In this document: piece after piece, positions 7,078 through 27,167 of the stretch | Layout of the letters: each line of letters starts with the position of its first letter | Position numbering within the stretch: position 1 is the stretch's first letter | Source: an uncultured Bacilli bacterium | GTDB taxonomy: Bacteria; Bacillota_I; Bacilli_A; RF39; UBA660 | Direction of reading: 5' to 3' | NCBI GenBank assembly: GCA_947630305.1 | Contig: CANRHC010000002.1 | Location: forward strand, 1 to 61,059 | DNA: 61,059 nucleotides | Position numbers and translations under genes: made by a program | The notes under the pieces: model-generated | Databases searched by the model: none | Seen by the model: only the letters and a program-made list of their open reading frames with translations | Told to the model about the DNA's origin: nothing

Positions 7078-7120
7078 TAAAAAAAATTGGAAATTTTTCG
7101 GCCATTAAGGAGTGTATAAT

Positions 7121-9058: not shown

Positions 9059-9062
9059 TAAT

Positions 9063-10157
9063 ATGAAAATTTTAATTAATACCATGTCTTTAAGTAAAGG
9101 CGGTGCTGAAAGGGTCATTAGTCTTTTGGCAAATTATTTATCTGTATCTAATGAAGTAATGATTATTACTCATGTTAAAACAAAAGTAGAATATAATTTT
9201 GATAATAAAATAATTATAAAGAGTATTGGTAAAGGTAATAATTTAATATCAAAATTTTTAAGAAGAATTTCAATTTTGATGTTATATAGATTAAAAAAAG
9301 AAGTGTTGAATTATAATCCTGATGTTGTTATTTCTTTCTTGCCTGAGGCTATATTTAGAATGTTAGCTTTAAAAAAACATTGTAAAAAAATTAAAAATAT
9401 TCCGATGATAATTTCAATAAGAAATGATCCTGAAACAGAATATAAAAATCTAGTTTATCACTTTATTATGAAAAAGTTATATCCATATGCCGATCAGATG
9501 ATACTTCAAACAATAAAAGCCAAAGAGTATTTTAAAAAGCATATTAATTATGAAGGAACGGTAATTTTTAATCCAGTTTCTGATGAATTTTTAACAAAAC
9601 GTTATAGTGGTGTACGACAAAGAAAAGTGGTAGCAGTTGGAAGATTAGAACCTCAAAAAAATTATAAAAATATGATCGATGCATTTGAAATAGTTCATAA
9701 AAAACATAATGATTATGTTTTAGAAATTTATGGTGATGGAAGTCAAAAAAATATATTAAAAGAGTATATAAACACTAAAAATTTACAAGATTATATTTTT
9801 TTAATGGGAAAATCTGATAATATAAAAGAAAAAATATATGATGCTTCTTTATTTGTGATGTCATCAAATTATGAAGGAATGCCAAATGCTTTATTAGAAG
9901 CTACTTGTTTGGGAATTCCATGTGTAAGTACAGATTGTCCATGTGGCGGGCCAGATGAAATTTTAGATCATGGTAAAAATGGAATTTTAGTGCCTATTAA
10001 AAATCCAGAAGAATTATCAAAGGGAATATGTAAATTAATTGAAGAACCTAAGCTAGCTGAAAAGTATAGTATAAATTCTTGTAAAAATGCTAAAAAATTT
10101 AATAAAGACTTAATATTAAAACAATGGTATAATGAAATAGATAAGATTATTAAATAA
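9063..10157 (+). CDS. GT4-family glycosyltransferase
   Basis: GGAERV near the N-terminus and EGMPNALLEATCLGIPCVSTD (E-x7-E region). ATG 9063 is preferred over 9045. Confidence 0.8.
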   Translation: MKILINTMSLSKGGAERVISLLANYLSVSNEVMIITHVKTKVEYNFDNKIIIKSIGKGNNLISKFLRRISILMLYRLKKEVLNYNPDVVISFLPEAIFRMLALKKHCKKIKNIPMIISIRNDPETEYKNLVYHFIMKKLYPYADQMILQTIKAKEYFKKHINYEGTVIFNPVSDEFLTKRYSGVRQRKVVAVGRLEPQKNYKNMIDAFEIVHKKHNDYVLEIYGDGSQKNILKEYINTKNLQDYIFLMGKSDNIKEKIYDASLFVMSSNYEGMPNALLEATCLGIPCVSTDCPCGGPDEILDHGKNGILVPIKNPEELSKGICKLIEEPKLAEKYSINSCKNAKKFNKDLILKQWYNEIDKIIK

Positions 10158-10174
10158 AAAGGGAGGAATTTTAT

Positions 10175-11563
10175 ATGTCTAGAACGAAAAATCTTAATTT
10201 TTTGGTCTTTTTAGCAATTTTATTAAGTGCTTTTATAGTAACAATTATATTATTTTTTAATAATGATTTTTCAAATTATTGGATGATTAATCTTCTTCCT
10301 TTAAGTTTTGTATCCGTACTTTTAATTAATTCAAATATTCTTACTAAAATTACTTCAAATGTTAGTGTTTTATTAATTGTTGGTTGTTATTATATGCGAA
10401 TGGTTATTTTGCCTATTTTTTATGTACTATCTGATTATAGTAGTTTTACTTTAGATGCTAATTACATTTTGTATATAACTAAAGCTGGCCTTTTAATGAT
10501 TTATGAATTTTTTGCAATTATGTTTTTTTCAAATATATATTTAAAAAGGTGTGAAAAAAAAGAAACTGAAATAAAGAAACTTAATATGGATAGTGTTTGT
10601 AAAAAAAGAAAAATTTTATATAAAATAGTAATTATATTAATTATTGTATTAGTTGGTTTTTTATTTTATCCTCAATTTAAATCTTATTTTAGATTGATAT
10701 TTAATGATGATTTAACAGCTATTAATACTCATAATGCTAATTTTAAAATAATGAAAAGTACAATCCCAGGAGTTATTTATAGAATTATTGTGTTTTTTAT
10801 TAATATTTTACAAGTTTTAATACCAATTGCTTTAATTAAAAAAATTTATACTTTAAAAATAGGTAGTGGAAAGAAATTTATTTTTTCCTTATTAATAATC
10901 CCAATTATAGTTTCGATTTGTACTCCTGATACTGCAACATCTTTTATTATTGCTTTAACGATTATTATTATGTTGATTCAATTATATCCTGAAAGAAAAA
11001 AAGTATTATTTATTGGTGCTTTATCTGTTGGAATTCCAATTTTGTTTTATGCTCTTTTTATTAAAACTGGTGTCAATTCGGCAACTAATGGTGTTTCAAG
11101 TGTTTTACAGGCTTATTTTTCTGGTATTTCTAATATAGCAACATCATTTTTAATGCCTAATATTCCCAATATTAAAATGCTTTTTAATGATATTTTGACA
11201 TCTATTCCTTTTTTAAATTATTTTTTTCAAAATTATACAACTACTGCTCAATTGTTTAATTATTCTTTATATGGAATGGTTGGTTCACATAGTCAAATTA
11301 TTCCTATGATAAGTCAATCATTATATTATTTTGGTGTTGTATTGGCTCCATTAATTCCTGTTTTATCAATATTAAGTTCTTTATCTTTTGAAAAAAAATA
11401 TCAAGAATCAGAGGACATTTATAATAAATTTTTATATTTAATTATGAGTATTTATTTTGCTATTGCACCTATCTTATATAATTTTACAATTCTTATATTA
11501 ATTTTTTTACAAATGTATATTCCATGTAAAATAATTGTCAATTTTAATTTGAAAAAGAAATAA
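10175..11563 (+). CDS. wzy: Wzy-like polysaccharide polymerase (polytopic membrane protein)
   Basis: More than 10 TM helices with no soluble domain. It sits between glycosyltransferases in a locus that also encodes Wzx. The call rests on context and topology only. Confidence 0.5.
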   Translation: MSRTKNLNFLVFLAILLSAFIVTIILFFNNDFSNYWMINLLPLSFVSVLLINSNILTKITSNVSVLLIVGCYYMRMVILPIFYVLSDYSSFTLDANYILYITKAGLLMIYEFFAIMFFSNIYLKRCEKKETEIKKLNMDSVCKKRKILYKIVIILIIVLVGFLFYPQFKSYFRLIFNDDLTAINTHNANFKIMKSTIPGVIYRIIVFFINILQVLIPIALIKKIYTLKIGSGKKFIFSLLIIPIIVSICTPDTATSFIIALTIIIMLIQLYPERKKVLFIGALSVGIPILFYALFIKTGVNSATNGVSSVLQAYFSGISNIATSFLMPNIPNIKMLFNDILTSIPFLNYFFQNYTTTAQLFNYSLYGMVGSHSQIIPMISQSLYYFGVVLAPLIPVLSILSSLSFEKKYQESEDIYNKFLYLIMSIYFAIAPILYNFTILILIFLQMYIPCKIIVNFNLKKK

Positions 11564-11583
11564 ATAAAGAACGGGTGGTTTTT

Positions 11584-12723
11584 ATGGACAATAAAAAAAT
11601 TAAGGTTTTACATTTAATTGATCATATGAATGATGGTGGAGCTCAACGAATAGTTTTAAATTATTTAAATGATTTAAGTAATGATGAAGATATTGAAATT
11701 AAAGTTTTAGTGTATAATAATAAAACAAATTCATATTGTAATCGAATCATTAGTCAAAATAAATATAATGTTGATTACTTATTTTTTAATGATCATAATA
11801 AATATATTCGCAAGATTAAGAAACTTTTTTTAGGGAAAAAAAAGTTGAGGGATTATATTAAAAATTATAATCCTGATATAGTTCATGTTCATATTTCAGC
11901 ATTTTTAAAAGTTTCTTTAAAAGAAATAATAAAATGTAATATTCCATTAAGGTTTGATACTTTACATAGTAATCCATATCGTTATAAGGGTATTTATTTA
12001 AAATATATTAGAAAGGCATTTCAAAGTGAAAATTTTATTGGATTATGTGTAACGAATGAACAAGCTTTATGTGCTAAATCTTATTATGGCTTAAAAAGGT
12101 ATGAAGTTGTTAAAAGTGGAATTGATATTGAGAAAATAAAAAAACAAATAATTTCTAAACAATCTGCAAGAAAGCAATTTAATATTTTAGATGATGCTTT
12201 TGTTATAATTGGTGTTGGTAGACTTAATAAAATAAAAAGATTTGATTTTTTAATTGATATTTTTGCTAAAATTTATGAAAAGAATGAAAATGCTATTCTT
12301 TTAATTGCTGGTGATGGAAAAGAGAGAAAAGATTTACAAAGAAAAGTTAAAAATTTGAATTTAGAACATCAAATTTATTTTTTAGGAAATTTAGATAATA
12401 TAATTCCTCTTTATTGTTTAGCTGATGTTTTAGCAATTACCTCAGTTTCTGAATCAGCATCTTTAACGTTGTTAGAATCACAGATATGTGGCCTTAGAAG
12501 TGTTATATCAAATGGTGTTCCAGATGAAAGTATTTTTACTACTAAAGTTAAAAAAATGGCAGAAAGTTCTGATATTGATTCTTGGGCTAAAGCATTATTA
12601 GACAAAGAATATGTTGGCAAAAAAGTTTGTCAAATGAAAGATTATGAAGTACATGAAAATAGTCAAAAGTTAAAGCAAATTTATTTAAAATACTGGAAGG
12701 AGTTTCAAAATGGGAAAAAATAG
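11584..12723 (+). CDS. GT4-family glycosyltransferase
   Basis: GGAQRIVLNY N-terminal motif and the E-x7-E-like segment SESASLTLLESQICGL. ATG 11584 follows GGGTGG. Confidence 0.75.
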   Translation: MDNKKIKVLHLIDHMNDGGAQRIVLNYLNDLSNDEDIEIKVLVYNNKTNSYCNRIISQNKYNVDYLFFNDHNKYIRKIKKLFLGKKKLRDYIKNYNPDIVHVHISAFLKVSLKEIIKCNIPLRFDTLHSNPYRYKGIYLKYIRKAFQSENFIGLCVTNEQALCAKSYYGLKRYEVVKSGIDIEKIKKQIISKQSARKQFNILDDAFVIIGVGRLNKIKRFDFLIDIFAKIYEKNENAILLIAGDGKERKDLQRKVKNLNLEHQIYFLGNLDNIIPLYCLADVLAITSVSESASLTLLESQICGLRSVISNGVPDESIFTTKVKKMAESSDIDSWAKALLDKEYVGKKVCQMKDYEVHENSQKLKQIYLKYWKEFQNGKK

Positions 12724-13663
12724 TAAACACTTTATAATAACAATTGATACTGAGGAAGATAATCAATGGAATTATGATCAAAAAGATACTACTTTAAATG
12801 TTGATTTTTTACCAAGATTTCAAGAACTTGCTGAAAAATTTGGTTTTAAACCTGTTTATTTAACTACTTATTCAATGGCTTTAAACAGTAAATTTGTAGA
12901 TTATTTTAAAGAAAAACAAAATAAAGGTTTATGTGAAATAGGTATGCATCTTCATGCATGGAATAATCCTCCAGAATATGTGTTACCTAAGATAAATAAG
13001 CAAAGACCATATTTAATAGAATATCCTACTAATATTATGGAAGATAAGATAAAAAAGCTTGATGATTTAATAACTAAAAAATTTGGAATGAAAGCAATAT
13101 CTCACAGATCAGGTAGATGGGCAATTAATGAAGATTATTTAAAATTATTAGAAAAATATAACTATAAAGTTGATTGTTCTGTTACTCCTCATGTTGATTG
13201 GCATAAGATGTTTGGCCAAACAAAGATTGGTGGAACAAATTATAAAAAAAGTAGTGAAAAAGAATATTTTATAACTGATAAAATTTTAGAAGTCCCGGTT
13301 ACTATTCGTCGATTAAGAATTTTAGAAAAAATGAGAATGAAAACATTGAAAGGTTTTGTAAAAGAGTGTATATTATATGTTACTAAAAAAAGTCAGTGGA
13401 TAAGACCATCAAATTCATTTTGTATAGATGGAATGAAAAAAGTAATTGATAAATGTAATAAAAATAATGAATATGTTATGTTTATGATTCATTCTTCTGA
13501 ACTCATGCCTGGTGGAAGTCCAAATTTTAAAACAGAAGAAAGTATAGAAAAATTATACCAAGTTATAATAGAAATATTTAAATATTTAAAAGATTTAGGA
13601 TATGTTGGTGTAACTTTAAAAGAATTTTATTCTGAATATATAGGAAGTGAGAAAAGTGAATAA
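12710..13663 (+). CDS. polysaccharide deacetylase-like protein (function uncertain)
   Basis: Cytoplasmic. TIDTEEDNQW, HLHAWN and MIHSSEL motifs resemble the metal-binding Asp/His pattern of deacetylase-like sugar-modifying enzymes. Confidence 0.4.
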   Translation: MGKNSKHFIITIDTEEDNQWNYDQKDTTLNVDFLPRFQELAEKFGFKPVYLTTYSMALNSKFVDYFKEKQNKGLCEIGMHLHAWNNPPEYVLPKINKQRPYLIEYPTNIMEDKIKKLDDLITKKFGMKAISHRSGRWAINEDYLKLLEKYNYKVDCSVTPHVDWHKMFGQTKIGGTNYKKSSEKEYFITDKILEVPVTIRRLRILEKMRMKTLKGFVKECILYVTKKSQWIRPSNSFCIDGMKKVIDKCNKNNEYVMFMIHSSELMPGGSPNFKTEESIEKLYQVIIEIFKYLKDLGYVGVTLKEFYSEYIGSEKSE

Positions 13664-14780
13664 TAGCGAAGTTGTAGTAATAGGCGGGGATCATTTTAAT
13701 ACATTATCTATAGTAAGATGTTTAGGACAAAAGAAAATTAATTTTCAAATTTTAATTCATAATGAAAGAAAAACTAAAGAAGAATTAATGATTTTACAGT
13801 CTAGATATTCTAAAAATTTAGTTTTATTAAAAGAGAGTGAAAATGATATTTTAAATTTTTTATTAAAAAATAAAGATGAAAATAAAAGAAAATTAATTAT
13901 TTCTTGTTCTGATTTAGCCCAATATACAATTGATCATAATTATCAAAAACTATTTAAGTATTATTATATTTCTGGGTTTAAAAATAATCCTGGTAGGGTA
14001 TGTGAGTTGATGGATAAATATGAGCAAAAGAAATGGGCAGATAAACATAATATATTAATGGCTAAAACTTGGAAAGTTAATAAAGATTATAAAATAAAAG
14101 ATATAACTATTCCTTGTATTATCAAGCCTTGTATTAGTGCTTTTGGTAAAAAAAGTGATATTAAAGTATGTTATAGTAAAGATGAATTGTTAAATACTTT
14201 GAATTATTATTTTGAAAACAATTATAATGAAGTTTTAATTCAAGAGTTTTTAGATAAAGAATATGAACTTTGTGCATTAGGTTGTATATTAGAAAACAAT
14301 CAAAAATATGGTAAAGTTATATATAAATTAAGAGAATATCCTTTAAATGGTGGAAGTACCTCTTATGCTAAATTTACAAGTGATTTAAGTATTGTAAATA
14401 GAGCTAATAAAATTATAGATTGTTTAATAAAAGAGGGTTATTTTGGATTATATGATATAGAAATTATTTATAGTAATGGTAAATATTATCTTAATGAAAT
14501 TAATTTTAGAAATAGTGGAAATAATTATGCACTTTTAAAATCTGGTATTGAAACTCCATATTTATTGTATTTAGAAAAATTTAATAAAGATTTATTAAAA
14601 AATTTGAAAATAAAAGATAAAGATATATATTTTATGGAAGATTTAAGTAATTTTAAATCTTTATGTGAAAAGCAAATTTCTTTATGGACTTTTGTGAAAA
14701 ATTTTTTTAGATCAAAAGCTCATTCTGTTTATTCTATTAAGGATTTAAAGGTTATTATTCATTATCTAAAAAAGAGGTGA
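13647..14780 (+). CDS. ATP-grasp carboxylate-amine ligase
   Basis: Central ATP-grasp pattern (IIKP..., LIQEFL, YELCALG) and the Mg/ATP-site motif EINFRNSGN. An alternative GTG start at 13656 lies 8 nt after AGGAAG. Confidence 0.6.
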   Translation: MRKVNNSEVVVIGGDHFNTLSIVRCLGQKKINFQILIHNERKTKEELMILQSRYSKNLVLLKESENDILNFLLKNKDENKRKLIISCSDLAQYTIDHNYQKLFKYYYISGFKNNPGRVCELMDKYEQKKWADKHNILMAKTWKVNKDYKIKDITIPCIIKPCISAFGKKSDIKVCYSKDELLNTLNYYFENNYNEVLIQEFLDKEYELCALGCILENNQKYGKVIYKLREYPLNGGSTSYAKFTSDLSIVNRANKIIDCLIKEGYFGLYDIEIIYSNGKYYLNEINFRNSGNNYALLKSGIETPYLLYLEKFNKDLLKNLKIKDKDIYFMEDLSNFKSLCEKQISLWTFVKNFFRSKAHSVYSIKDLKVIIHYLKKR

Positions 14781-14786
14781 AATTTA

Positions 14787-16256
14787 ATGAAAAATAAATT
14801 AGAAAAAGGTAATTCTGTAGTTGGTGGCCTTTTTTGGACATTTGGGGAACGAATAACTGCTCAATTGGTAACAGTAATAGTTACTATTGTTTTAGCTCGT
14901 ATTTTAGCTCCTGAACATTATGGTATTATTTCAATTGTTACGGTATTTATTTCTTTATGTAATATTTTTGTCTCAAGTGGTTTTGGAAGTGCGGTTGTTC
15001 AAAAAAAGAATGCAACTGATGATGATTTTAATACTGCTTTTGTTATTAGTTTTACGATTAGCATTTTATTATATTTGATTTTGTTTTTCTTATCACCTTA
15101 TATTGCTAATTTTTATCATATGCCTGATTTGGTTATGGTTTTACGAGTAATGGGTATAAGACTAATTATTGCATCATTAAATACAATTCAACATGCTTAT
15201 ATTCAACGTCAAATGAAATTTAAAAAATTCTTTTTTGCTACTTTATTTGGTACAGTTTTATCAGCTATTGTAGGTATTATTTTAGCTTATTTAAATTTTG
15301 GCGTTTGGGCTTTAGTGGCTCAGTATTTAATTAATACTACTGTTGATACTATTGTCTTGGCATTTGTTTGTAAATGGAAAGTTCGTTTTTATTTTAATTT
15401 AAAAAAAGCTAAAGAGTTATTTTCTTTTGGTTGGAAGGTATTATGTACTGAGTTAATATTTACTTTAGAAAGTGATATAAGAAGTTTAATTGTTGGAAAA
15501 GTTTTTGGCTCTGCTGATTTAGCTTATTATGATCAAGGAAGAAAATATCCTAGTTTATTTGTAACGAATATAAATTCATCAATCACTAAAGTTATGCTTC
15601 CGGCTTTTTCTAAAGAGCAAGATGATATAGAAAAATTAAAAAAAATGCTTCAAAAATCTGTTAAAGTAAGTACCTATGCTTTAGCTCCTTTGCTTATTGG
15701 TTTTGCCTTATTATCAGATAATTTTATTTTAATTTTTTTAACAGAAAAATGGCTTCCAGCTGTTCCATATGTTCAAATATTTTGCTTAGTTTTTTTAACA
15801 AGACCATTTGAAAATTCTTGTCATCAAGCTTTATTAGCAATTGGGAAAAGTGGGATTGTGATGAAGATTATGTTGGCTATCAATATTTTTGCCTTATTTA
15901 CTGTTTTATTTGCTGTTTTCATTTTAAAAAGTGTATATTTTATAGCAGTAGGTTCTTTATTAACCGCGGTTGTTAGTTTATCTCTTTTTATGATTATGGT
16001 AAGTATAAAAATTGGTTATAAAATATTGGATCAAATTCATGATATTTTTCCACCTATATGTATTAGTTTAATAATGGGAATTTTTGTTTATTTAATTGGA
16101 ATGATTAAACTTCCTCTTATAATATTATTAACACTTCAAATTTTAATAGGAGCAATTATATATTTGTTATTATCTGTTAAATTTAAAATTTATGGTTATA
16201 TATATTTAAAAGATAGATTATTCCATATTATTAGAAAGGTTAAAGGTGTATGTTAA
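14787..16256 (+). CDS. wzx: Wzx-type (MOP superfamily) oligosaccharide flippase
   Basis: About 14 TM helices. The N-terminal segment GGLFWTFGERITAQLVTVIVTIVLARILAPEHYG is typical of polysaccharide biosynthesis (PST) flippases. Confidence 0.8.
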   Translation: MKNKLEKGNSVVGGLFWTFGERITAQLVTVIVTIVLARILAPEHYGIISIVTVFISLCNIFVSSGFGSAVVQKKNATDDDFNTAFVISFTISILLYLILFFLSPYIANFYHMPDLVMVLRVMGIRLIIASLNTIQHAYIQRQMKFKKFFFATLFGTVLSAIVGIILAYLNFGVWALVAQYLINTTVDTIVLAFVCKWKVRFYFNLKKAKELFSFGWKVLCTELIFTLESDIRSLIVGKVFGSADLAYYDQGRKYPSLFVTNINSSITKVMLPAFSKEQDDIEKLKKMLQKSVKVSTYALAPLLIGFALLSDNFILIFLTEKWLPAVPYVQIFCLVFLTRPFENSCHQALLAIGKSGIVMKIMLAINIFALFTVLFAVFILKSVYFIAVGSLLTAVVSLSLFMIMVSIKIGYKILDQIHDIFPPICISLIMGIFVYLIGMIKLPLIILLTLQILIGAIIYLLLSVKFKIYGYIYLKDRLFHIIRKVKGVC

Positions 16257-16786
16257 TGATAAAAAGTAGAAAAGATTATAAGTATTATTTAGAATGTGAT
16301 AAAATAGCATTAGGTATTAGTAGAAAATATCCTATGCCAATTGTAGACATTATATGGAAATTTGAAAGATTATTAAGAAAATATGAATATTATAAAAATT
16401 GTTCAAAAACTATTTTTGGAAAAATATATTTAATTTTTTTGAAAATTCATTATTTTACATTATCTAGAAAATTAGGTTTTTCTATTCCAGCAAATGTTTT
16501 TGGACCAGGATTATCTATTGCTCATTATGGAACAATAGTTGTAAATTCTACTGCCCGTGTTGGCAAGAATTGTCGAATTCAAGAAGGTACTAATATTGGT
16601 TCTACTAATGGTTCTTCTAAAGCTGCAACAATAGGTGATAATGTTTTTATTGGAACTGGTGCTAAAATTATTGGCGATGTAAAGATAGGAAATAATGTTT
16701 GTATTGGTGCTGGAGCAGTTGTTACAAAAAGTTTTGGCGAAAACATCACCGTGGGGGGGGGTGCCAGCGAAAAAAATTTCATCTAA
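16250..16786 (+). CDS. left-handed beta-helix (hexapeptide) O-acetyltransferase, WcaB/CysE-like; C-terminus shifted at a G9 tract
   Basis: Hexapeptide repeats IGDNVFIGTGAKIIGDVKIGNNVCIGAGAVV. The frame ends ...VGGGASEKNFI*. Removing one G restores the family motif VGGVPAKKI and extends the ORF to 16841. Confidence 0.8.
   Translation: MLMIKSRKDYKYYLECDKIALGISRKYPMPIVDIIWKFERLLRKYEYYKNCSKTIFGKIYLIFLKIHYFTLSRKLGFSIPANVFGPGLSIAHYGTIVVNSTARVGKNCRIQEGTNIGSTNGSSKAATIGDNVFIGTGAKIIGDVKIGNNVCIGAGAVVTKSFGENITVGGGASEKNFI
16753..16761 (+). repeat. G9 homopolymer inside the acetyltransferase gene
   Basis: Nine consecutive G counted directly at 16753-16761, followed by an A7 run at 16771-16777, in an otherwise very AT-rich genome. 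Confidence 0.95.
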
Positions 16787-16870
16787 CAATTCGCATAGTA
16801 ATTTGCAAAAAAAGCTTCGTGAAAGTAACTTGTTGTATTAAATTAAAAATTAAGAAAGGAATTTAAGTTT

Positions 16871-17908
16871 ATGAATGTAAGTATAAAAGTAATATTAGTA
16901 ACCGGATCTTCTGGTTTTATAGGTTCTAATTTAGTTAAGAGATTATTAAAGGAGAATAAAGATATAACAATTATTGGTATTGACAATATGAATGATTATT
17001 ATGATGTTAATTTAAAGGAATATAGATTAAATGAATTAAAACAATTTGATAATTTTACTTTCATTAAAGGAAATATTGCCGATAAAAAATTAATTAATTC
17101 AATATTTGAAAAATATAAACCAAATGTAGTTGTTAATTTAGCAGCTCAAGCTGGAGTAAGATATAGTATTTTAAATCCTGATGTTTATATTGAGTCTAAT
17201 GTAATTGGTTTTTATAATATATTAGAAGCATGTCGTCATAATCCAGTTGAACATTTAGTTTATGCTTCATCATCTTCTGTTTATGGTGGTAATACAAAAG
17301 TTCCTTTTTCAACTGATGATAAAGTAGATAATCCTGTAAGTTTGTATGCTGCCACTAAAAAAAGTAATGAATTATTTGCTCATACTTATTCTAAACTTTA
17401 TAATATTCCCACAACTGGTTTAAGGTTTTTTACAGTTTATGGTCCAGCAGGACGTCCAGATATGGCTTATTTTGGTTTTACTGATAAGTTAATTAAAGGT
17501 GAAACGATTAAAATATTTAATTATGGTAATTGTAAAAGAGATTTTACTTATATTGATGATATTGTAGAAGGCATAATTAGAGTAATGCAAAAAGCTCCTA
17601 TGAAAAAAAATGGTGAAGATGGTCTTCCCATTGCTCCATATGCCATTTATAATATAGGAAATTCCCATCCAGAAAATTTACTTGATTTTGTAAATATTTT
17701 ACAAGAAGAATTAATAAATGCAAAAGTTTTATCAAAAGATTATGATTTTGAAAGTCATAAACAGCTAGTACCTATGCAAGCAGGCGATGTGCCAGTAACT
17801 TATGCTGATACAACTCCATTAGAAAAAGAATTTGGTTTTAAGCCTAATACATCTCTTAGAGCTGGTTTAAGAAAGTTTGCCAAATGGTATAAAGAATTTT
17901 ATGATTGA
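16871..17908 (+). CDS. extended-SDR nucleotide-sugar epimerase, UDP-glucuronate 4-epimerase type
   Basis: VTGSSGFIGSNL, YASSSSVYG and YAATKK motifs. Ugd is encoded in the same locus. Confidence 0.7.
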   Translation: MNVSIKVILVTGSSGFIGSNLVKRLLKENKDITIIGIDNMNDYYDVNLKEYRLNELKQFDNFTFIKGNIADKKLINSIFEKYKPNVVVNLAAQAGVRYSILNPDVYIESNVIGFYNILEACRHNPVEHLVYASSSSVYGGNTKVPFSTDDKVDNPVSLYAATKKSNELFAHTYSKLYNIPTTGLRFFTVYGPAGRPDMAYFGFTDKLIKGETIKIFNYGNCKRDFTYIDDIVEGIIRVMQKAPMKKNGEDGLPIAPYAIYNIGNSHPENLLDFVNILQEELINAKVLSKDYDFESHKQLVPMQAGDVPVTYADTTPLEKEFGFKPNTSLRAGLRKFAKWYKEFYD

Positions 17909-18966
17909 AAATTTGTATTTCTAGAAGTATAATAGTGCAAGTTTTTATAAAGGAGTGCATTTTAAGCGTGAAAAAAATAGTTGTTAAAAATGGATTATTA
18001 AGATTTATATTATCTAGTATTATTGCTTTTATAATTTTAACTCTTTTTTGTGTTTTTTATTATAATGTTCCTCCTCAAAATAAACCATTAGATGGAACAA
18101 CTGATTATAAATGGAAATCTAATACATTTTATTCTAGAGCTACTGAAGGATTTGCTTTAGGTAAAACTAATAATGATGGTTATGTTAATGATTATGATTT
18201 TAATGATAAAACAGATATTGATGTTTTAATAGTAGGTTCATCACAAATGGAAGCCCTTGAAGTAAATATGAATGAAACAACTTCATCATTATTAAATAAA
18301 AAGTTAAAAAATCAAAATGTGTATAATATTGGTATTTCTGGACATTATTTTTTAAATTGTGTTAGCAATTTAGAAAGTGCTATAAAAAAGTATAATCCTA
18401 AAAAATATTTAATTATTGAAACTTCAAGTTTAACTTTTGATGACGAATCATTAATTAAAACGATAAATAATGAGTTAGAAGAAATTCCTTTTAAAGCTAA
18501 TGGAATATTAGGAATTTTACAACAAAATCAATTTATTAGACTTGCTTATAAACAATTAAGAAGTTTTATTGATAAAAAAAGTATTAATGATGAAGAAGAT
18601 ATTTTAAATATTAATAATTCTTCAAATTATAATGCTGAACTATTAAATAAATTATTTATAAAAATAAGAAATATATCTTCTAAAACAAATATAATTATTC
18701 TTTATCATCCAAGTACAACTATAGCTGATAATGGTAAATTAATATTATCAAGTGAAAGTGAAAATGTAGAAGAATTTAAAAAGTTATGTAATCAAAATGG
18801 AATCGATTTTTTAGATATGAGTGATAGGTTTAAACAAGAATATGAAAATAATTATCTTTTACCTTATGGTTTTAGTAATACTACAATTGGAACAGGTCAT
18901 TTAAATAAATATGGTCATCAAATGATTGCCGATGAATTGTTTAAAATAATTGAAAGGGGAAAGTAG
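17905..18966 (+). CDS. membrane-anchored SGNH/DltD-like acyl-transfer protein
   Basis: Single N-terminal TM. VGSSQMEAL (block I Ser) and GTGHLNKYGHQMIA (block V His). It lies directly upstream of the MBOAT gene. The start is probably GTG 17968, after AAGGAG. Confidence 0.5.
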   Translation: MKICISRSIIVQVFIKECILSVKKIVVKNGLLRFILSSIIAFIILTLFCVFYYNVPPQNKPLDGTTDYKWKSNTFYSRATEGFALGKTNNDGYVNDYDFNDKTDIDVLIVGSSQMEALEVNMNETTSSLLNKKLKNQNVYNIGISGHYFLNCVSNLESAIKKYNPKKYLIIETSSLTFDDESLIKTINNELEEIPFKANGILGILQQNQFIRLAYKQLRSFIDKKSINDEEDILNINNSSNYNAELLNKLFIKIRNISSKTNIIILYHPSTTIADNGKLILSSESENVEEFKKLCNQNGIDFLDMSDRFKQEYENNYLLPYGFSNTTIGTGHLNKYGHQMIADELFKIIERGK

Positions 18967-18967
18967 T

Positions 18968-20443
18968 ATGTCCTTTGCATCAATAGATTTTATTATATTT
19001 TTTATTGTAATAATTTTAGGAATTTTAATAATTCAAAAGTTTTTTTCTAATAGAGTTAAAGAAATATTTTTATTATTAGCTAGTTATTTCTTTTATGGTT
19101 ATTGGGATTGGCGTTTTTGCTTTTTACTTTTATTTGTAACAGTAAGTTCTTATTTTACAGCAAAATATAAGGATAAAAAATGTTTTTATATAATTGGAAT
19201 TATTATTCCATTAGTAGTTCTTGGTTTCTTTAAATATTTTAATTTTTTCTTAGATAATGTTTCAATTATAATTGGACATAATTTAGGTACTTTAAATATT
19301 ATTCTTCCAATTGGTATTTCTTTTTATACTTTTCAAGCTTTAAGTTATGTTATAGATGTTAAAAGAGGAACTATTGAAGAAGAAAAAGATTTTGTAAAAT
19401 TAGCATTGTATTTAAGTTTTTTTCCACAGCTTGTTGCTGGTCCTATAGTAAGAGCATCTGATTTTTTACCTCAATTAAAAGAGGATAGAAAATTAAATGC
19501 CCAAAACTTTAAATATGGTATCCAGTTAATGGCTTTTGGTTTTTTCAAAAAAATTGTTTTAGCTGATCATATATCAATTTTTGTAGATACTGTTTTTAGA
19601 GTACCAGTTGCTTTTAGCGGTTATACAATATTACTTGCTGTATTATCTTATTCCATTCAAATTTATTTTGATTTTTCTGGATATTCTGACATAGCTATTG
19701 GATGTGCCAAATGTTTAGGTTATGATTTTAATAAAAACTTTAATTTACCATTTATATCAAAAAATACTTCTGAATTTTGGCGTAGATGGCATATTTCACT
19801 TGGAACTTGGATTAAAGATTATGTATTTTATCCATTATTGAAATCAAATTTTATTCAAAGTTTAAATAAAAAATGTAAGGCAATCTTTGGTAAAAAAGTT
19901 GGTAAAAAAATTCCTTTATATTTATCAATGTTTATTACTTGGAGTTTAGTTGGTTTATGGCATGGCAGTGCTTATACTTTTATAGTCGGTTCTGGAATTT
20001 TGCAATTTTTATGGATCTTTTTGGAAGAAAACTTAGAACCATTAGCTAAGTTTATTACCAATAAATTAAAAATTAATAGAGATTCAGTTATCTTTAAAAT
20101 TTATCAAATGATTAGAACCTATTTATTATTTTCTTTTGCAATGATCTTTTTTAGAGCTAGTAGTTTTAGTAATGCATTGCAAGTAATAAAAGGAATATTT
20201 ACTTTTCAAAAAGGAATTAAATGGTCTTTTGCTTGGTCATTTATATCAATGATATTATTATTAATATTTACAATAGGTGCTGTAATTAAATCAAAGAAAA
20301 ATAATGAAAAAGAAATTGAAGGATATTATCCAATTGTTAATTTAGATACAGTTTGGGGTTTAACAATCTTTTTAGTAGTATTGGGATTAATATTTGGTTT
20401 AGCATTTACAGGTGAACAACCATTTGTATATTTTCAATTTTAG
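18968..20443 (+). CDS. MBOAT-family membrane O-acyltransferase (DltB/AlgI-like)
   Basis: FWRRWHISLGTWIKDYVFYP contains the invariant MBOAT His. Polytopic. ATG 18968 follows AAGGGGA. Confidence 0.85.
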   Translation: MSFASIDFIIFFIVIILGILIIQKFFSNRVKEIFLLLASYFFYGYWDWRFCFLLLFVTVSSYFTAKYKDKKCFYIIGIIIPLVVLGFFKYFNFFLDNVSIIIGHNLGTLNIILPIGISFYTFQALSYVIDVKRGTIEEEKDFVKLALYLSFFPQLVAGPIVRASDFLPQLKEDRKLNAQNFKYGIQLMAFGFFKKIVLADHISIFVDTVFRVPVAFSGYTILLAVLSYSIQIYFDFSGYSDIAIGCAKCLGYDFNKNFNLPFISKNTSEFWRRWHISLGTWIKDYVFYPLLKSNFIQSLNKKCKAIFGKKVGKKIPLYLSMFITWSLVGLWHGSAYTFIVGSGILQFLWIFLEENLEPLAKFITNKLKINRDSVIFKIYQMIRTYLLFSFAMIFFRASSFSNALQVIKGIFTFQKGIKWSFAWSFISMILLLIFTIGAVIKSKKNNEKEIEGYYPIVNLDTVWGLTIFLVVLGLIFGLAFTGEQPFVYFQF

Positions 20444-20485
20444 GAGTATTTATTTTTATAATTGTGAAAGGAATGTGTGGTTTTG

Positions 20486-20863
20486 ATGAAATTTCATCAT
20501 ATTGGAATAGCAACGGAAGATATATATAAGACATTAGAAAAGTTAAAAAAATTTTTTAATATTAAAAATATTAGTGAAGTTATTTATGATAAGAATCAAA
20601 ATGCCAATTTATGTATGATAATGCTTGATGATGGTATTATGATTGAATTGATAAGTGGAGATGTAGTAGCTAATATAGTAAAAAAAAGACAATATTTATA
20701 CCATACTTGTTATTCGGTTGCCAATATAGAAAAGACTATAAAAGATTTAATTGATGATGGGGCTTTTTTAGTTAAAGAGGCCAAAGAAGCTATTTTATTT
20801 GATAATCATAAGGTTGCATTTTTAATGTGGGATTTAGGGTTGATTGAGTTGTTAGAAAATTAG
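20486..20863 (+). CDS. VOC (glyoxalase / methylmalonyl-CoA epimerase-like) family protein
   Basis: N-terminal MKFHHIGIATEDI and C-terminal LIELLE are characteristic of the small VOC fold. Confidence 0.6.
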   Translation: MKFHHIGIATEDIYKTLEKLKKFFNIKNISEVIYDKNQNANLCMIMLDDGIMIELISGDVVANIVKKRQYLYHTCYSVANIEKTIKDLIDDGAFLVKEAKEAILFDNHKVAFLMWDLGLIELLEN

Positions 20864-21168
20864 TTTGTTATTGCTATAGCAACTGTGTAATTTTTTTCAT
20901 GTGAAATAGAAATACAAATATTTGAATGATTTACAACATATGGACTTCCATCATTATTTGTTAAAATTTCAAAATCTAAGAAGTTTAAATTTTTAGTATT
21001 TGGTAAGGCTTTCATAATTGCTTCTTTAACAGCAAATCTTCCATATAAATAATGAAAGCCTCTTTTTTTATATTCTTCTTGTTCTTTTTTAGTTAAAATT
21101 AAATCAATAAAATCTTGATTTTTATTTTTTAAACGATAATTTTCGACAATATCAATTCCAATAGACAT
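20860..21168 (-). CDS. acpS: holo-[acyl-carrier-protein] synthase (4'-phosphopantetheinyl transferase)
   Basis: MSIGIDIVE... GRFAVKEAIMKAL ... ISISHEKNYTVAIAI aligns along its length with AcpS. Confidence 0.8.
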   Translation of the reverse strand: MSIGIDIVENYRLKNKNQDFIDLILTKKEQEEYKKRGFHYLYGRFAVKEAIMKALPNTKNLNFLDFEILTNNDGSPYVVNHSNICISISHEKNYTVAIAITN

Positions 21169-21203
21169 TTATAATCACCTAGGTAAATTTTAACATAATT
21201 TAC

Positions 21204-21232
21204 TTGAAATAGAAAATACTAAATGTTACAAT
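21204..21232 (+). promoter_or_regulatory. sigma-A-type promoter for the FkbH-like/ACP/ugd genes
   Basis: TTGAAA (21204-21209), 17 nt spacer, TACAAT (21227-21232), with TG at 21224-21225. Confidence 0.5.
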
Positions 21233-21252
21233 ATGGCTAGTGGTGAAGAAGT

Positions 21253-23031
21253 ATGAGGGAGTTAGAGTATCCATTTGATGTTGAATATCTTATTAAAAAT
21301 AAGAAAAAAATAAAAAAGAAATTATTAGAAAGTGAAAATTTATTAGAAAAAAGGATTGCAATATTAGGTGGATCAACTACTAGTGAAATAAAAAATATGT
21401 TAGAAATATTTTTATTAAATTATGGGATTAAACCAATATTTTATGAATCTGAGTATAATAAATTTTATGAAGATGCTTTATTTGGTAATGATGATTTAGA
21501 TAATTTTAATCCAGATATTATATATATTCATACGACAAATAGAAATATAATGAATTATCCAACTTTATATGATAGTGACGAAACTGTTAATGAATTACTG
21601 GAAAATGAATATTTAAAATTTGAAAAAATTTGGAATAGTTTATTTAAGAAATTTAAAGCAACAATTATTCAAAATAATTTTGAATATCCATCTTATAGAT
21701 TATTAGGAAATATGGATGCTAGTAATATTCATGGTAAAATAAATTTTATAACTAGATTAAATCAAAAATTTTATGATTATCAAAATAAAACTAAAAATTT
21801 TTTTATAAATGATATTAATTATGTTTCAGCATGTTATGGTTTAGATAAATGGGATCAAGGTTTTTATTGGCATATGTATAAATATGCTATGGAAGTTCCT
21901 GCTATTCCTTATTTATCATTTAATATAGCTAAAATAATTAAATCTATTTATGGAAAAAATAAAAAAGCTTTTGTTTTAGATTTGGATAATACTTTATGGG
22001 GTGGAGTAGTTGGTGATGATGGAGTAGAAAATTTAGCTATTGGGCCAGAAGTACCCAGTGGTCAAGTTTATTTTGAATTTCAAAATTATTTAAAAGAGCA
22101 TAAAAGTTTAGGAGTTATTTTAAATATAAATTCTAAAAATGAATATGAAAATGCTATAGCGGGATTAAATCATCCAGCAAGCTCTTTAAAACCTGATGAT
22201 TTTATTATTATTAAAGCTAATTGGAATCCAAAAAATATTAATATTAAAGATATTTCTGAAGAATTAAATTTAGGAGCGGATAGTTTTGTATTTGTAGATG
22301 ATAATCCTGCTGAAAGACAAATTGTTAAAAATTATATTGATAAAATAGCTGTTCCTCAAATTGATATTCCTGAAAATTATATTAAAATAATTGATCGAAA
22401 TGGTTATTTTGAAGTTACTAATTTTTCTAAAGAAGATTTAAATAAAAGTGAAATGTATAAAGATAATGCAAAAAGAAGTCAAATGATGGCAACTTTTGAT
22501 AATTATGATGATTATTTAAAGTCTTTGAAAATGAAAGCTGAAATAACATCTTTTAAAAAGATTTATTTGGAAAGAATTTCACAGTTAAGTAATAAAAGTA
22601 ATCAATTTAATTTAACAACTAAAAGATATTCCCTTGCAGATATTGAATCTATTTATAACGATGATAATTACATTAAATTATATGGTAAATTAGAAGATAT
22701 TTTTGGTGATAATGGCGTGATTACTGTTGTAATTGGACATATTATAAACGAAATAGAGTTACATATCGATTTATGGATTATGAGTTGTCGAGTTTTAAAA
22801 AGAAATATGGAATTTGCTATGATGGATGAACTTGTTAAGTATTCTAGAAAAAGAAACCTTAAAACAATATATGGATATTATTATCCAACATTAAAAAATA
22901 AAATGGTTCAAGATTTTTATGATATTCAAGGTTTTGAATTAATTAATGAAGATAGTGAAGGAAATAAAAAATATAAATTAGATATTAATGAATATAAATT
23001 AAAAAATAATGTAATTGAGGTGGAAGAATAA
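21253..23031 (+). CDS. FkbH-like HAD-IIIC family protein (carrier-protein loading enzyme)
   Basis: HAD motif I in FVLDLDNTLWGG and motif FVDDNPAERQ. It has a C-terminal GNAT-like region and is immediately followed by an ACP gene. Confidence 0.7.
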   Translation: MRELEYPFDVEYLIKNKKKIKKKLLESENLLEKRIAILGGSTTSEIKNMLEIFLLNYGIKPIFYESEYNKFYEDALFGNDDLDNFNPDIIYIHTTNRNIMNYPTLYDSDETVNELLENEYLKFEKIWNSLFKKFKATIIQNNFEYPSYRLLGNMDASNIHGKINFITRLNQKFYDYQNKTKNFFINDINYVSACYGLDKWDQGFYWHMYKYAMEVPAIPYLSFNIAKIIKSIYGKNKKAFVLDLDNTLWGGVVGDDGVENLAIGPEVPSGQVYFEFQNYLKEHKSLGVILNINSKNEYENAIAGLNHPASSLKPDDFIIIKANWNPKNINIKDISEELNLGADSFVFVDDNPAERQIVKNYIDKIAVPQIDIPENYIKIIDRNGYFEVTNFSKEDLNKSEMYKDNAKRSQMMATFDNYDDYLKSLKMKAEITSFKKIYLERISQLSNKSNQFNLTTKRYSLADIESIYNDDNYIKLYGKLEDIFGDNGVITVVIGHIINEIELHIDLWIMSCRVLKRNMEFAMMDELVKYSRKRNLKTIYGYYYPTLKNKMVQDFYDIQGFELINEDSEGNKKYKLDINEYKLKNNVIEVEE

Positions 23032-23273
23032 TGGAAAAAGAAATTTATGAAAGATTAAACAATGTATTTAGAGATATTTTTGATGATGAAACTATTGAAG
23101 TGCATCCCGAAACAACTTCAGATGATATTGAAGATTGGGATTCACTAGAACACATTAATTTAGTTGTTGCAGTGGAACAAGAATTTGGAATGAAATTTAA
23201 TATGAATGAAGTAACAACTATGAAAAATGTTGGTGAAATGGTTGAAATAATTAAGAAGAATATGACAAAATAA
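23031..23273 (+). CDS. acyl carrier protein
   Basis: 80 aa, acidic. The DSLEHINLV motif carries the phosphopantetheine-attachment Ser. Confidence 0.8.
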
Positions 23274-23293
23274 TTGAAAAGGTGTTGAAAATA

Positions 23294-27160: not shown

Positions 27161-27167
27161 CTTTCTT

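What the first reader, a model, noticed from the sequence alone, without database searches (positions are those of the whole stretch)
16751..16841. G9 homopolymer shifts the frame of the capsule O-acetyltransferase: candidate slipped-strand phase switch
Seen in sequence: nine consecutive G at 16753-16761 in a genome where G runs are otherwise nearly absent. The current frame reads ...ITVGGGASEKNFI* and stops at 16786. Deleting one G gives ...ITVGGVPAKKISSNNSHSNLQKKLRESNLLY*, stopping at 16841. That restores GGVPAK-I, the hallmark C-terminal motif of hexapeptide (LbH) acetyltransferases. Established knowledge: homopolymer length changes are a standard ON/OFF mechanism for surface-glycan modification genes. 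Inference: this assembly captures the OFF or altered state of a phase-variable O-acetylation gene. The alternative is a homopolymer sequencing error.
Basis: partly seen in the sequence, partly recalled or inferred. Interest (0 to 1): 0.65.

Follow-up and report, generated by a model that had tools for sequence, protein, structure and literature searches.

The report
Poly-G switch in polysaccharide O-acetyltransferase gene
A run of nine G's near the end of a sugar O-acetyltransferase gene in an uncultured rabbit-gut spore-former puts the gene out of frame, and relatives carry the same run at other lengths (in frame, one short, one long), so it is very likely a reversible on/off switch of a well-known kind for decorating a surface polysaccharide.

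Summary
G9 lies at 16753-16761 and is the only G/C run longer than 5 in 61 kb of 23.6% GC DNA (about 0.01 expected). It truncates a serine-acetyltransferase-fold hexapeptide acetyltransferase in a Wzx/Wzy polysaccharide locus. G8 restores a 194-aa protein that aligns end to end with 107 homologues.

G9 is not an assembly error: the window and four other assemblies all show it.

The tract behaves like a contingency locus:
- A conspecific fragment from another study has G8 (ON) on identical flanks.
- The 83%-identical orthologue has G7 where G8 is needed (OFF, -1).
- A 70% orthologue has an in-frame G7 (ON).
- Other homologues use interrupted codons (GGT GGT GTT).
- The tract persists although synonymous sites are saturated and GGG makes up only 6% of Gly codons.
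- The out-of-frame tail is under purifying selection in the ON frame (dN/dS 0.12).

A second clade of the family (Gallintestinimicrobium) has a mid-gene poly-G of 7-10 with ON and OFF alleles.

Switching within one population and the O-acetyl phenotype remain untested, because no raw reads held the organism.

Verdict: a well-supported new member of a known kind, SSR-mediated phase variation of polysaccharide O-acetylation.

The parts
16753..16761 (+). Poly-G tract (G9), the proposed slipped-strand switch. It spans the codons GTG GGG GGG GGT. G8 or G11 is in frame (ON). G6, G9 or G12 gives the short tail. G7 or G10 gives the long alternative tail.
   Evidence: GGG is 6.2% of Gly codons and GTG 5.4% of Val codons in the window's ORFs. 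Of 50 Gly-Gly codon pairs, the only GGG-GGG pair is this one.
16256..16786 (+). Hexapeptide-repeat (LbH), serine-acetyltransferase-fold polysaccharide O-acetyltransferase gene as read in the present G9 frame: 176 aa ending GGGASEKNFI*. The ORF finder starts it at 16250.
   Evidence: Pfam Hexapep scores 46 bits against a cut-off of 27. The start follows from alignment to homologues. The AF2 model of the G8 read-through has pLDDT 94.9, and its best PDB fold matches are CysE structures with TMq 0.64-0.69.
16762..16841 (+). C-terminal coding segment, out of frame with G9 and read only with G8/G11: VPAKKISSNNSHSNLQKKLRESNLLY*. It holds the family's invariant or nearly invariant residues P170, A171, I174, S175, S179 and L183.
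   Evidence: 107-sequence alignment. In the G8 frame, dN/dS against the L005 orthologue is 0.12 with dS>1. The model places residues 171-175 as a beta strand paired with 165-168, at pLDDT 95-98.
16842..16866 (+). Extra stretch read only in the third frame (G7/G10): ...CQRKKFHLTIRIVICKKSFVKVTCCIKLKIKKGI*. The stop ends 5 nt before the next gene's ATG.
   Evidence: The L005 orthologue (P0002) is caught in this frame.
14787..16256 (+). Wzx-type flippase gene. Its TAA stop overlaps the acetyltransferase ATG (TAATG), which suggests translational coupling.
   Evidence: Pfam Polysacc_synt_3, E 3e-96. Sequence.
16871..17908 (+). NAD-dependent sugar epimerase/dehydratase gene immediately downstream. 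Synteny is kept in L005.
5203..24463 (+). The surrounding Wzx/Wzy-type polysaccharide biosynthesis locus. It contains a CapD-like dehydratase, an initiating sugar transferase fused to GT1, further GT1 genes, an ATP-grasp-like gene, wzx, the acetyltransferase, an epimerase, an MBOAT, an FkbH-like gene and UDP-glucose dehydrogenase.

Best explanation
The G9 run is a simple-sequence contingency tract inside the 3' part of a polysaccharide O-acetyltransferase gene. During replication the run gains or loses a G by slipped-strand mispairing.

With G8 (or G11) the gene makes a full 194-aa SAT-fold LbH acetyltransferase, which probably O-acetylates the repeat unit made by this Wzx/Wzy locus. With G9, as in this assembly, translation leaves the conserved frame right after Gly168-Gly169. 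It replaces the conserved last beta strand and tail (25 residues, six of them invariant or nearly invariant in the family) with eight unrelated residues. This most likely inactivates the enzyme (OFF). G7/G10 gives a third, long unrelated tail, also presumed OFF.

The lineage therefore toggles O-acetylation of a surface polysaccharide. By analogy with known systems, that changes recognition by phages and by host antibody.

Shown here:
- the tract and its frame consequences;
- its rarity;
- G9 reproduced in independent assemblies;
- G8, G7 and in-frame alleles in a conspecific strain and in orthologues;
- selection on the tail and on the tract.

Inferred:
- the rate and reversibility of switching within a clone;
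- loss of activity in the OFF frames;
- the acceptor sugar and the ecological benefit.
For: (1) Rarity and codon bias. This is the only G/C run longer than 5 in 61 kb, with about 0.01 expected. It is built from codons used at about 6% (GGG) and 5% (GTG).

(2) It is not an artefact. G9 is identical in the window and in four other SPAdes assemblies that differ from it by private variants.

(3) Length polymorphism on identical flanks. Run X5, from another study, has a 205-nt contig covering 16717-16922 with 0 mismatches and exactly one G fewer, i.e. G8 = ON. In the 18-kb comparison, this was the only indel reported in the few X5 fragments that match.

(4) Orthologues:
- L005 (83% aa identity) has CTG GGG GGG TAC, a G7 where G8 is needed, so it is shifted into the third frame.
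- L144/L145 (70%) have ATC GGG GGG GTA, a G7 in frame, giving an intact 201 aa.
- L147, L142/143, L146, L148-150 and about 30 other homologues use interrupted codons with a longest G run of 2-4.

(5) Selection. Between the window and L005, dS exceeds 1 (saturated). Both still keep GGG GGG, and both keep an open, conserved tail in the G8 frame. dN/dS is 0.12 for the tail and 0.08 upstream.

(6) The lost residues matter. P170 and S179 are invariant, and A171, I174, S175 and L183 are at least 90% conserved in 107 homologues. They are well ordered in the model.

(7) The same family shows textbook ON/OFF polymorphism at another poly-G. The Gallintestinimicrobium clade has G7-G10 at codon ~120 in 12 contigs that are 96-100% identical, with products of 194/195 aa or 135-148 aa.
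Against: No read-level data were available. The runs that hold the organism exist only as contigs, and the two raw-read runs offered had no reads of it. Heterogeneity within one population, the defining behaviour of phase variation, is therefore not shown.

All five assemblies of this clone are G9, and the protein database holds no G8 or G10 form of this allele. Switching may be slow, or OFF may be strongly favoured.

The G8 allele rests on one 205-nt contig of k-mer depth 3.1, from a strain present at very low coverage.

The tract sits 87% of the way through the gene, so the truncated product could keep some activity. The enzyme's activity and acceptor are inferred only from homology and context.
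Confidence: 0.7

Rival explanations
1. Fixed degenerative frameshift. The acetyltransferase is simply a young pseudogene in this clone, and independently in L005. The G run is a mutational hotspot but not a selected, reversible switch.
For: All five assemblies of the clone show G9, and no G8 or G10 product of this allele is in the protein database. Other apparently disruptive private variants occur in the same locus: a 2-bp deletion in wzx in L001 and a premature stop in the ATP-grasp-like gene in L003. This hints at relaxed selection on the locus.
Against: The tail ORF is intact and conserved in the G8 frame in both OFF lineages, despite saturated synonymous divergence. The tract is retained against strong codon bias in three lineages. 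An in-frame G8 allele exists on identical flanks. Opposite-direction shifts (+1 and -1) around the same ON length are what a toggling tract produces.
Confidence: 0.12
2. The frameshift changes or only partly reduces function rather than switching it off. Either the G9 and G7/G10 products with alternative C-termini are functional isoforms (C-terminal switching). Or RNA-polymerase or ribosome slippage on the G9 run restores some full-length protein from the G9 template.
For: The tract lies near the 3' end, after all hexapeptide coils, and the catalytic-site His (H90, invariant) is retained. C-terminal sequence switching by 3'-proximal homopolymers has been described in Helicobacter canadensis (PMC2823697, title and abstract). 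Long homopolymers are known slippage sites for RNA polymerase (my own knowledge, not tested here).
Against: The residues lost are among the most conserved in the family and are ordered in the model. The alternative tails show no conservation: the L005 third-frame tail is unrelated to any homologue tail. No expression data exist.
Confidence: 0.13
3. Homopolymer sequencing or assembly error. The true sequence is G8 and the gene is simply intact.
For: Coverage is low, about 3-4x. Logan contigs of the source runs break at the tract. One other run gives G8.
Against: The window and four other separately assembled contigs, with private differences elsewhere, all give G9. The contigs of run X1 that reach into the tract from either side both contain nine G. 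Illumina consensus errors would not recur identically five times. Orthologues show that other out-of-frame lengths really occur.
Confidence: 0.03

Closest known systems
Campylobacter jejuni poly-G contingency loci in the capsule, LOS and flagellar-glycan modification genes
   Same: An AT-rich genome in which G runs of about 8 or more are rare and concentrated in surface-glycan modification genes. Gain or loss of one G shifts the frame ON/OFF, and standing tract variation allows rapid adaptation and phage escape (PMC3025981, PMC5808241, PMC8224891, abstracts).
   Different: Different phylum: a spore-forming Bacillota here (gpr, spoIIP). Only one tract occurs in 61 kb here. The switching rate and mismatch-repair status are unknown. 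The tract is near the 3' end of the gene.
Streptococcus pneumoniae wciZ (serotype 15B/15C)
   Same: Gram-positive Wzx/Wzy capsule locus. A simple repeat inside an O-acetyltransferase gene changes length, shifts the frame and removes O-acetylation, and mixed populations are seen (PMC5028725).
   Different: The repeat there is a TA dinucleotide tract near position 413, not a homopolymer.
Escherichia coli K1 NeuO
   Same: A phase-variable capsule O-acetyltransferase, ON only at certain repeat numbers. O-acetylation alters phage and neutrophil killing. Public genomes are a mix of ON and OFF (PMC13001214).
   Different: It uses a heptanucleotide repeat (AAGACTC) at the 5' end, is prophage-borne and acts on polysialic acid. 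No sequence comparison with NeuO was made here.
Serine O-acetyltransferase CysE (solved structures 4HZC, 6WYE, 1T3D...)
   Same: Best sequence and fold matches. An N-terminal helical domain is followed by a left-handed beta helix ending in G-V-P-A-K/R.
   Different: It scores far below the CysE, EpsC and WcaB equivalog cut-offs (74.7 against 210.65 for TIGR01172). It has a shorter N-terminal domain and sits inside a polysaccharide locus, translationally coupled to wzx. It is a sugar O-acetyltransferase of the SAT-like subgroup, not cysteine biosynthesis.

Membership tests
SSR-mediated phase-variable (contingency) locus | A simple sequence repeat long enough to be hypermutable, lying in the reading frame or promoter | tested here: met
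   G9 lies inside the ORF at 16753-16761.
SSR-mediated phase-variable (contingency) locus | Changes of repeat number switch between an intact and a disrupted product | tested here: met
   G8/G11 gives a full-length 194/195 aa. G6/9/12 and G7/10 give two unrelated tails.
SSR-mediated phase-variable (contingency) locus | Repeat over-represented or maintained against composition and codon bias (a sign of selection for mutability) | tested here: met
   Expected count is about 0.01. GGG is 6% of Gly codons. The tract is kept in window, L005 and L144 despite dS>1, and absent in other homologues.
SSR-mediated phase-variable (contingency) locus | Different tract lengths among closely related strains | tested here: met
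   G9 in five assemblies against G8 in the X5 contig with identical flanks. The G8 allele rests on a single low-depth contig.
SSR-mediated phase-variable (contingency) locus | High-frequency, reversible length change within a clonal population | not testable with these tools
   Only contigs exist for the runs holding the organism. Raw-read runs X6 and X7 held no reads of it.
SSR-mediated phase-variable (contingency) locus | A phenotype that switches with the tract (here O-acetyl content or antigenicity) | not testable with these tools
   The organism is uncultured. This needs chemistry on ON and OFF variants.
Hexapeptide-repeat (LbH) acyltransferase superfamily, SAT-like fold | Hexapeptide repeats forming a left-handed beta helix | tested here: met
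   Pfam PF00132 scores 46-51 bits against a cut-off of 27. The AF2 model has pLDDT 94.9 with short-strand coils over residues 94-175.
Hexapeptide-repeat (LbH) acyltransferase superfamily, SAT-like fold | Overall fold like serine acetyltransferase (N-terminal helices plus LbH), with the active-site His conserved | tested here: met
   Top 33 Foldseek hits are CysE structures, probability 1.00, TMq 0.60-0.69. H90 is invariant in 107 homologues and aligns with the D-H of SAT. The role of that His is taken from the SAT literature (my own knowledge).
True serine O-acetyltransferase (CysE), as sources label the homologues | Passes the CysE equivalog model and lies in a cysteine-biosynthesis context | tested here: not met
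   TIGR01172 scores 74.7 bits against a cut-off of 210.65, and NF008349 scores 57.9 against 397. The gene is embedded in a Wzx/Wzy polysaccharide locus.
Colanic-acid WcaB / EpsC-type polysaccharide acetyltransferases | Passes the WcaB or EpsC equivalog model | tested here: not met
   EpsC scores 75.6 against 150 and WcaB 49 against 194.65. It is related to these families but belongs to neither.

The most novel reading that the evidence does not exclude
Poly-G contingency tracts may be a widespread, repeatedly evolved device by which gut Clostridia, commensals not usually counted among phase-varying bacteria, toggle O-acylation and expression of their surface polysaccharides.

From the loci fetched for this one gene family alone I saw five cases:
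- a 3'-proximal tract in three low-GC rabbit-gut lineages, with states ON, -1 and +1;
- an unrelated mid-gene tract of G7-G10 with ON and OFF alleles in Gallintestinimicrobium propionicum-like contigs;
- an in-frame G9 in a Lachnospiraceae MAG;
- membrane Acyl_transf_3 acyltransferase genes split at G10 (Anaerobium acetethylicum isolate) and at G8 (rabbit MAG);
- two G8 tracts sitting in the spacers of the two best promoter-like sites of a relative's polysaccharide locus.

If general, this would be a Campylobacter-like 'phasome' in the dominant gut Firmicutes. It would complement the invertible promoters of Bacteroides.
Probability: 0.45. Interest if true: 0.65.

Novelty: new member of a known kind. 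Interest (0 to 1): 0.48.

Why it matters
O-acetyl groups on capsules and other surface polysaccharides decide which phages adsorb and which antibodies bind. A stochastic ON/OFF switch lets one clone hedge between these states. Such switches are textbook for mucosal pathogens (Campylobacter, Neisseria, pneumococcus, E. coli K1). They are hardly documented for the anaerobic spore-forming Firmicutes that dominate mammalian guts.

This locus and the parallel tracts in related gut Clostridia suggest the same strategy operates there. There are practical consequences too. Automated annotation calls these genes truncated or split, and MAG pipelines may 'polish' the tract, so real biological states are misread as errors or pseudogenes. 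Two cultured species with similar tracts (Gallintestinimicrobium propionicum, Anaerobium acetethylicum) make the idea testable.

Tried and rejected
- Read-level counting of G8/G9/G10 was not possible. The four rabbit-gut runs and X5 are held only as Logan contigs. The two raw-read runs of X5's study had zero reads on the region in the ~12% sampled.
- Logan contigs of X1 break at the tract, and X2-X4 lack 16500-16790. This fits low coverage as well as heterogeneity, so I did not count it as evidence.
- Naming the organism failed. The genome-contig scan found no conspecific genome carrying the gene; the best hit was 65%. A LepA search returned only unnamed metagenome proteins at 90% or less. The nearest named cluster, at 83% identity, includes Candidatus Ventrenecus avicola, itself 'Bacteria incertae sedis' in NCBI taxonomy. 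The paper that names it did not show the term in the text held.
- The first AF2 model, from a 15-sequence alignment, was too poor to use (pLDDT 64). A 107-sequence alignment gave pLDDT 94.9.
- I considered that the tract might act on the downstream gene or as a promoter element. No convincing promoter or terminator surrounds it on the + strand, and the next gene has its own start 30-85 nt downstream.
- I considered a true CysE role and rejected it on model scores and context.
- Literature searches for homopolymer phase variation in Clostridia or Lachnospiraceae polysaccharide genes found nothing specific. Absence from this library is not proof of novelty.

Full report
**1. The observation**

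Window 16753-16761 is GGGGGGGGG. The window has 23.6% GC, with nine G5 runs, no C run of 5 or more, and no other G/C run longer than 5. A first-order Markov estimate gives about 0.01 runs of G>=9 per 61 kb.

The tract lies in ORF 16250-16786, a hexapeptide-repeat protein (Pfam PF00132, 46 bits against a cut-off of 27) that ends ...ITVGGGASEKNFI*. Removing one G gives ...ITVGGVPAKKISSNNSHSNLQKKLRESNLLY*, ending at 16841. Homologues begin MIKS, so the true start is probably ATG 16256. It overlaps the stop of the upstream wzx gene as TAATG. The products are then 176 aa (G9) and 194 aa (G8).

**2. Context**

The gene sits in a Wzx/Wzy-type polysaccharide locus of roughly 5203-24463. In order it holds:
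- a CapD-like 4,6-dehydratase;
- an initiating sugar transferase fused to a GT1;
- three GT1 genes and two unassigned membrane or unknown proteins;
- an ATP-grasp-like protein;
- the Wzx flippase (14787-16256);
- the acetyltransferase;
- an NAD-dependent epimerase (16871-17908);
- an unassigned 353-aa protein and an MBOAT (a second O-acylation system);
- an FkbH-like protein and UDP-glucose dehydrogenase.

Elsewhere the window encodes TyrRS, DnaD, EF-P, LepA, the germination protease Gpr and SpoIIP. It is therefore chromosomal DNA of a spore-forming Bacillota. The runs that hold it are rabbit-gut metagenomes. No named close relative was found: LepA matches at 90% or less, and the nearest named cluster (83%) includes Candidatus Ventrenecus avicola.

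**3. Is G9 real?**

The exact 178-aa G9 product is encoded on five contigs: the window and four others from separate ENA assemblies (L001-L004; SPAdes, coverage about 3-4x). All have G9. They are 99.94-100% identical to the window over 6.5 kb but carry private differences:
- a 2-bp deletion in wzx in L001;
- one SNP in L002;
- one nonsense SNP and a 3-bp deletion in L003.

They are therefore independent assemblies of one clone. A random homopolymer miscall would not recur five times, so the 'assembly error' alternative is essentially excluded. Because they are one clone, they count as one evolutionary observation.

**4. Does the tract vary?**

Three lines say yes.

(a) Run X5 is a gut metagenome from a different study. 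It contains a 205-nt contig (k-mer depth 3.1) covering 16717-16922 with no mismatch and exactly one G missing at the tract. That is the G8 in-frame allele. X5 holds this organism only at very low coverage. Its other matching fragments are 95-99% identical, so it is a conspecific strain, not the same clone.

(b) The closest orthologue is P0002, on the Logan contig L005, at 83% aa identity in the same gene order. It has ...ACC CTG GGG GGG TAC CTG CTA..., a G7 where G8 would read L-G-G-V-P-A-K-K-I-S-D-N-N. As assembled it runs into the third frame (GGYLLKKFQ...).

(c) P0008 is 70% identical and lies on a rabbit MAG contig of GCA_947631345.1 (L144) and on an independent assembly (L145). It has ATC GGG GGG GTA CCG, a G7 that is in frame, and the protein is an intact 201 aa.

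Three diverged orthologues, all in 24-26% GC DNA (the window and L144/L145 from rabbit-gut samples; the host of the L005 run is not known), thus carry a poly-G at the same Gly-Gly-Val codons, in the states +1, -1 and ON.

**5. Is the tract selected or accidental?**

Elsewhere in the family the same residues use interrupted codons:
- GGC GGT GTT in L142/143;
- GGC GGC GTA in L146;
- GGC GGT GTG in L148-150;
- GGT GGT GTT in L147, which is 27% GC and the closest relative of P0008 at 73%;
- GCA GGA GTT or similar in about 25 more distant homologues.

The longest G run in these is 2-4. By pairwise identities, the tract-bearing genes fall into two groups, (window, L005) and P0008, separated by tract-free relatives. 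The tract was therefore gained at least twice or lost several times.

In the window's own ORFs GGG is 6.2% of Gly codons and GTG 5.4% of Val codons. Of 50 Gly-Gly pairs, only this one is GGG-GGG. Between the window and L005, synonymous sites are saturated (dS 1.1 upstream, 1.8 in the tail), yet GGG GGG is retained. The 25-codon tail, read in the G8 frame, has dN/dS 0.12, against 0.08 for the 166 upstream codons.

Both 'OFF' genes have thus been kept under purifying selection in the ON frame throughout their divergence. That is expected of a gene that keeps returning to ON. It is not expected of two decaying pseudogenes.

**6. What the frameshift removes**

In an alignment of 107 homologues (58-72% identity), G168, P170 and S179 are invariant, and A171, I174, S175 and L183 are at least 90% conserved. 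Everything after G169 is lost with G9.

An AlphaFold2 model of the G8 read-through, built on that alignment, has pLDDT 94.9. It shows three N-terminal helices and a left-handed beta helix. Residues 171-175 form a strand paired with 165-168, followed by an ordered tail with short helices at pLDDT 87-98.

The best fold matches in the PDB are serine acetyltransferases (probability 1.00, TMq 0.60-0.69). The sequence alignment to them runs through G-V-P-A-K. The protein is not CysE: it scores 74.7 bits against a cut-off of 210.65 for TIGR01172, and it also falls below the EpsC and WcaB cut-offs.

I infer that the G9 and G7/G10 products are inactive, but this is inference. The catalytic-site His (H90) and all the coils are retained.

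**7. Mechanism proposed**

Slipped-strand mispairing at the G run changes its length by one. G8 or G11 gives active enzyme and an O-acetylated polysaccharide. G9 (this assembly) or G7/G10 gives truncated or mis-tailed protein and a non-acetylated polysaccharide.

The G7/G10 frame ends at 16866, 5 nt before the epimerase ATG at 16871. No convincing promoter or terminator lies around the tract on the + strand. Polar effects on downstream genes are therefore probably small.

The ecological role is taken by analogy with NeuO, pneumococcal wciZ and Campylobacter capsule modifications: escape from phage or antibody (PMC13001214, PMC5028725, PMC5808241).

**8. What is missing**

The defining behaviour of phase variation is frequent, reversible change within a clone. 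It could not be tested. The runs that hold the organism are available only as contigs, and the two raw-read runs on offer contained no reads of it. All five assemblies of the clone are G9, and the protein database has no G8 or G10 version of this allele. The G8 allele rests on one low-depth contig.

The rivals I keep are:
- a fixed young pseudogene (0.12);
- altered function or slippage-rescued expression, rather than OFF (0.13);
- a sequencing or assembly artefact (0.03).

**9. Wider pattern seen in the fetched loci**

A second clade of the same family is 52-56% identical to the window gene, with ~36% GC. It includes the isolate Gallintestinimicrobium propionicum Sanger_16 and 11 metagenome contigs that are 96-100% identical to one another. 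It has a poly-G at codon ~120 (GATTCAA-Gn-(T)ACCGAC) with n = 7, 8, 9 or 10. Products are 194/195 aa in L074, L077, L079 and L080, and 135-148 aa in L022, L086, L087 and L088.

Further cases:
- L016, a Lachnospiraceae MAG, has an in-frame G9 in the same region.
- Flanking Acyl_transf_3 membrane acyltransferase genes are split exactly at a G10 in Anaerobium acetethylicum GluBS11 (L013) and at a G8 in a rabbit MAG (L011).
- In L144, two intergenic G8 tracts share the context C-G8-TATTATAA. They lie in the spacers of the two best + strand promoter-like sites that precede genes, TTGACT-16-TATAAT and TTGACA-18-TATTAT, upstream of a GT2 gene and the next gene.

Poly-G tracts thus recur in polysaccharide-modification genes of gut Clostridia.

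**10. Comparison and novelty**

The mechanism is the classical simple-sequence contingency locus. The closest analogues are:
- Campylobacter jejuni poly-G tracts in capsule-modification genes;
- pneumococcal wciZ (TA repeat, 15B/15C);
- E. coli K1 neuO (heptanucleotide repeat).

This case differs in host (an uncultured spore-forming gut Bacillota), enzyme subgroup (a SAT-fold LbH enzyme coupled to wzx) and tract position (3'-proximal, removing only the last strand and tail). Literature searches found no description of such switches in Clostridia or Lachnospiraceae polysaccharide loci, but the library is incomplete.

I classify it as a new member of a known kind. The case is well supported by comparative evidence and of moderate interest. 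The broader, convergent pattern is the more interesting lead.

Noticed in passing
L022, L074, L077, L079, L080, L086-L091, L094 (tract at locus position 3359 where the gene starts at 3001): A second clade of the same acetyltransferase family carries a mid-gene poly-G at codon ~120. The clade comprises Gallintestinimicrobium propionicum strain Sanger_16 and human or animal gut metagenome contigs that are 96-100% identical to each other. Tract lengths are G7, G8, G9 and G10 in different contigs. Products are full length (194/195 aa) or truncated (135-148 aa).
   Followed up: yes
L144 9077-9084 and 11430-11437: In the polysaccharide locus of the 70% orthologue's genome (GCA_947631345.1), two intergenic G8 tracts share the context C-G8-TATTATAA. 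They sit in the spacers of 11/12-match promoter-like sites (TTGACT-16-TATAAT and TTGACA-18-TATTAT), upstream of a GT2 gene and the following gene. They look like promoter-spacer phase switches.
   Followed up: partly
L013 4922-4931; L011 2689-2696: Membrane Acyl_transf_3 (OafA-like) acyltransferase genes next to the homologous acetyltransferase are split into two ORFs exactly at a poly-G. The tract is G10 in the isolate Anaerobium acetethylicum GluBS11 and G8 in a rabbit Clostridia MAG. L011 also has a G9 at 4122, at the 3' end of another ORF.
   Followed up: partly
L016 1621-1629: A Lachnospiraceae rabbit MAG has an in-frame G9 (ACG GGG GGG GGT) in the middle of its copy of the acetyltransferase gene.
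   Followed up: no
window 15934-15935, 13668, 18069-18071, 15415: Contigs otherwise identical to the window, from other samples, carry private variants in the same locus. L001 has a 2-bp TA deletion that frameshifts wzx. L003 has a G>T that turns codon 8 of the ATP-grasp-like gene into a stop, and an in-frame 3-bp TCC deletion. L002 has one SNP. These are either real within-population loss-of-function variation in the polysaccharide locus or low-coverage errors.
   Followed up: partly
window 17905-20443 and 2712-3713: Further O-acylation machinery lies in or near the locus. An MBOAT (DltB/AlgI-like, 18950-20443) is preceded by an unassigned 353-aa protein with a faint SGNH/GDSL hit. An Acyl_transf_3 gene at 2712-3713 lies next to 3-hydroxyacyl-CoA dehydrogenase-like and thiolase-like genes. 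The polysaccharide may carry several acyl decorations, only one of them tract-controlled.
   Followed up: no
window 16770-16776: An A7 run (Lys-Lys codons AAA AAA A) lies 8 nt downstream of the G tract and is kept in all three tract-bearing orthologues. A -1 slip there would restore the conserved frame after a +1 in the G run, changing only about four residues.
   Followed up: no
window 26546-29318: A ScaI-type restriction endonuclease gene (Pfam RE_ScaI, E 7e-74) is convergent with a 716-aa N6/N4 DNA methylase gene, just downstream of the polysaccharide locus and a sigma-70-family factor gene (25546-26202).
   Followed up: no
window 16746-16761 (run X1 contigs): Logan contigs of the source run break at the tract. 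One contig ends at 16761 and the next starts at 16746. Runs X2-X4 have no contig over 16500-16790. This fits low coverage, homopolymer-related read errors or length heterogeneity, and cannot be resolved without reads.
   Followed up: partly
L148 21-28, L149 20-27, L150 same place: An ATPgrasp_TupA-like gene beside another homologue has an in-frame G8 in two assemblies and GGGGTGGG in a third.
   Followed up: no
L005 6648-7226: The 83% orthologue's locus carries a second, unrelated hexapeptide acetyltransferase gene (192 aa) just after the epimerase. The window has the 353-aa protein and the MBOAT at that position.
   Followed up: no
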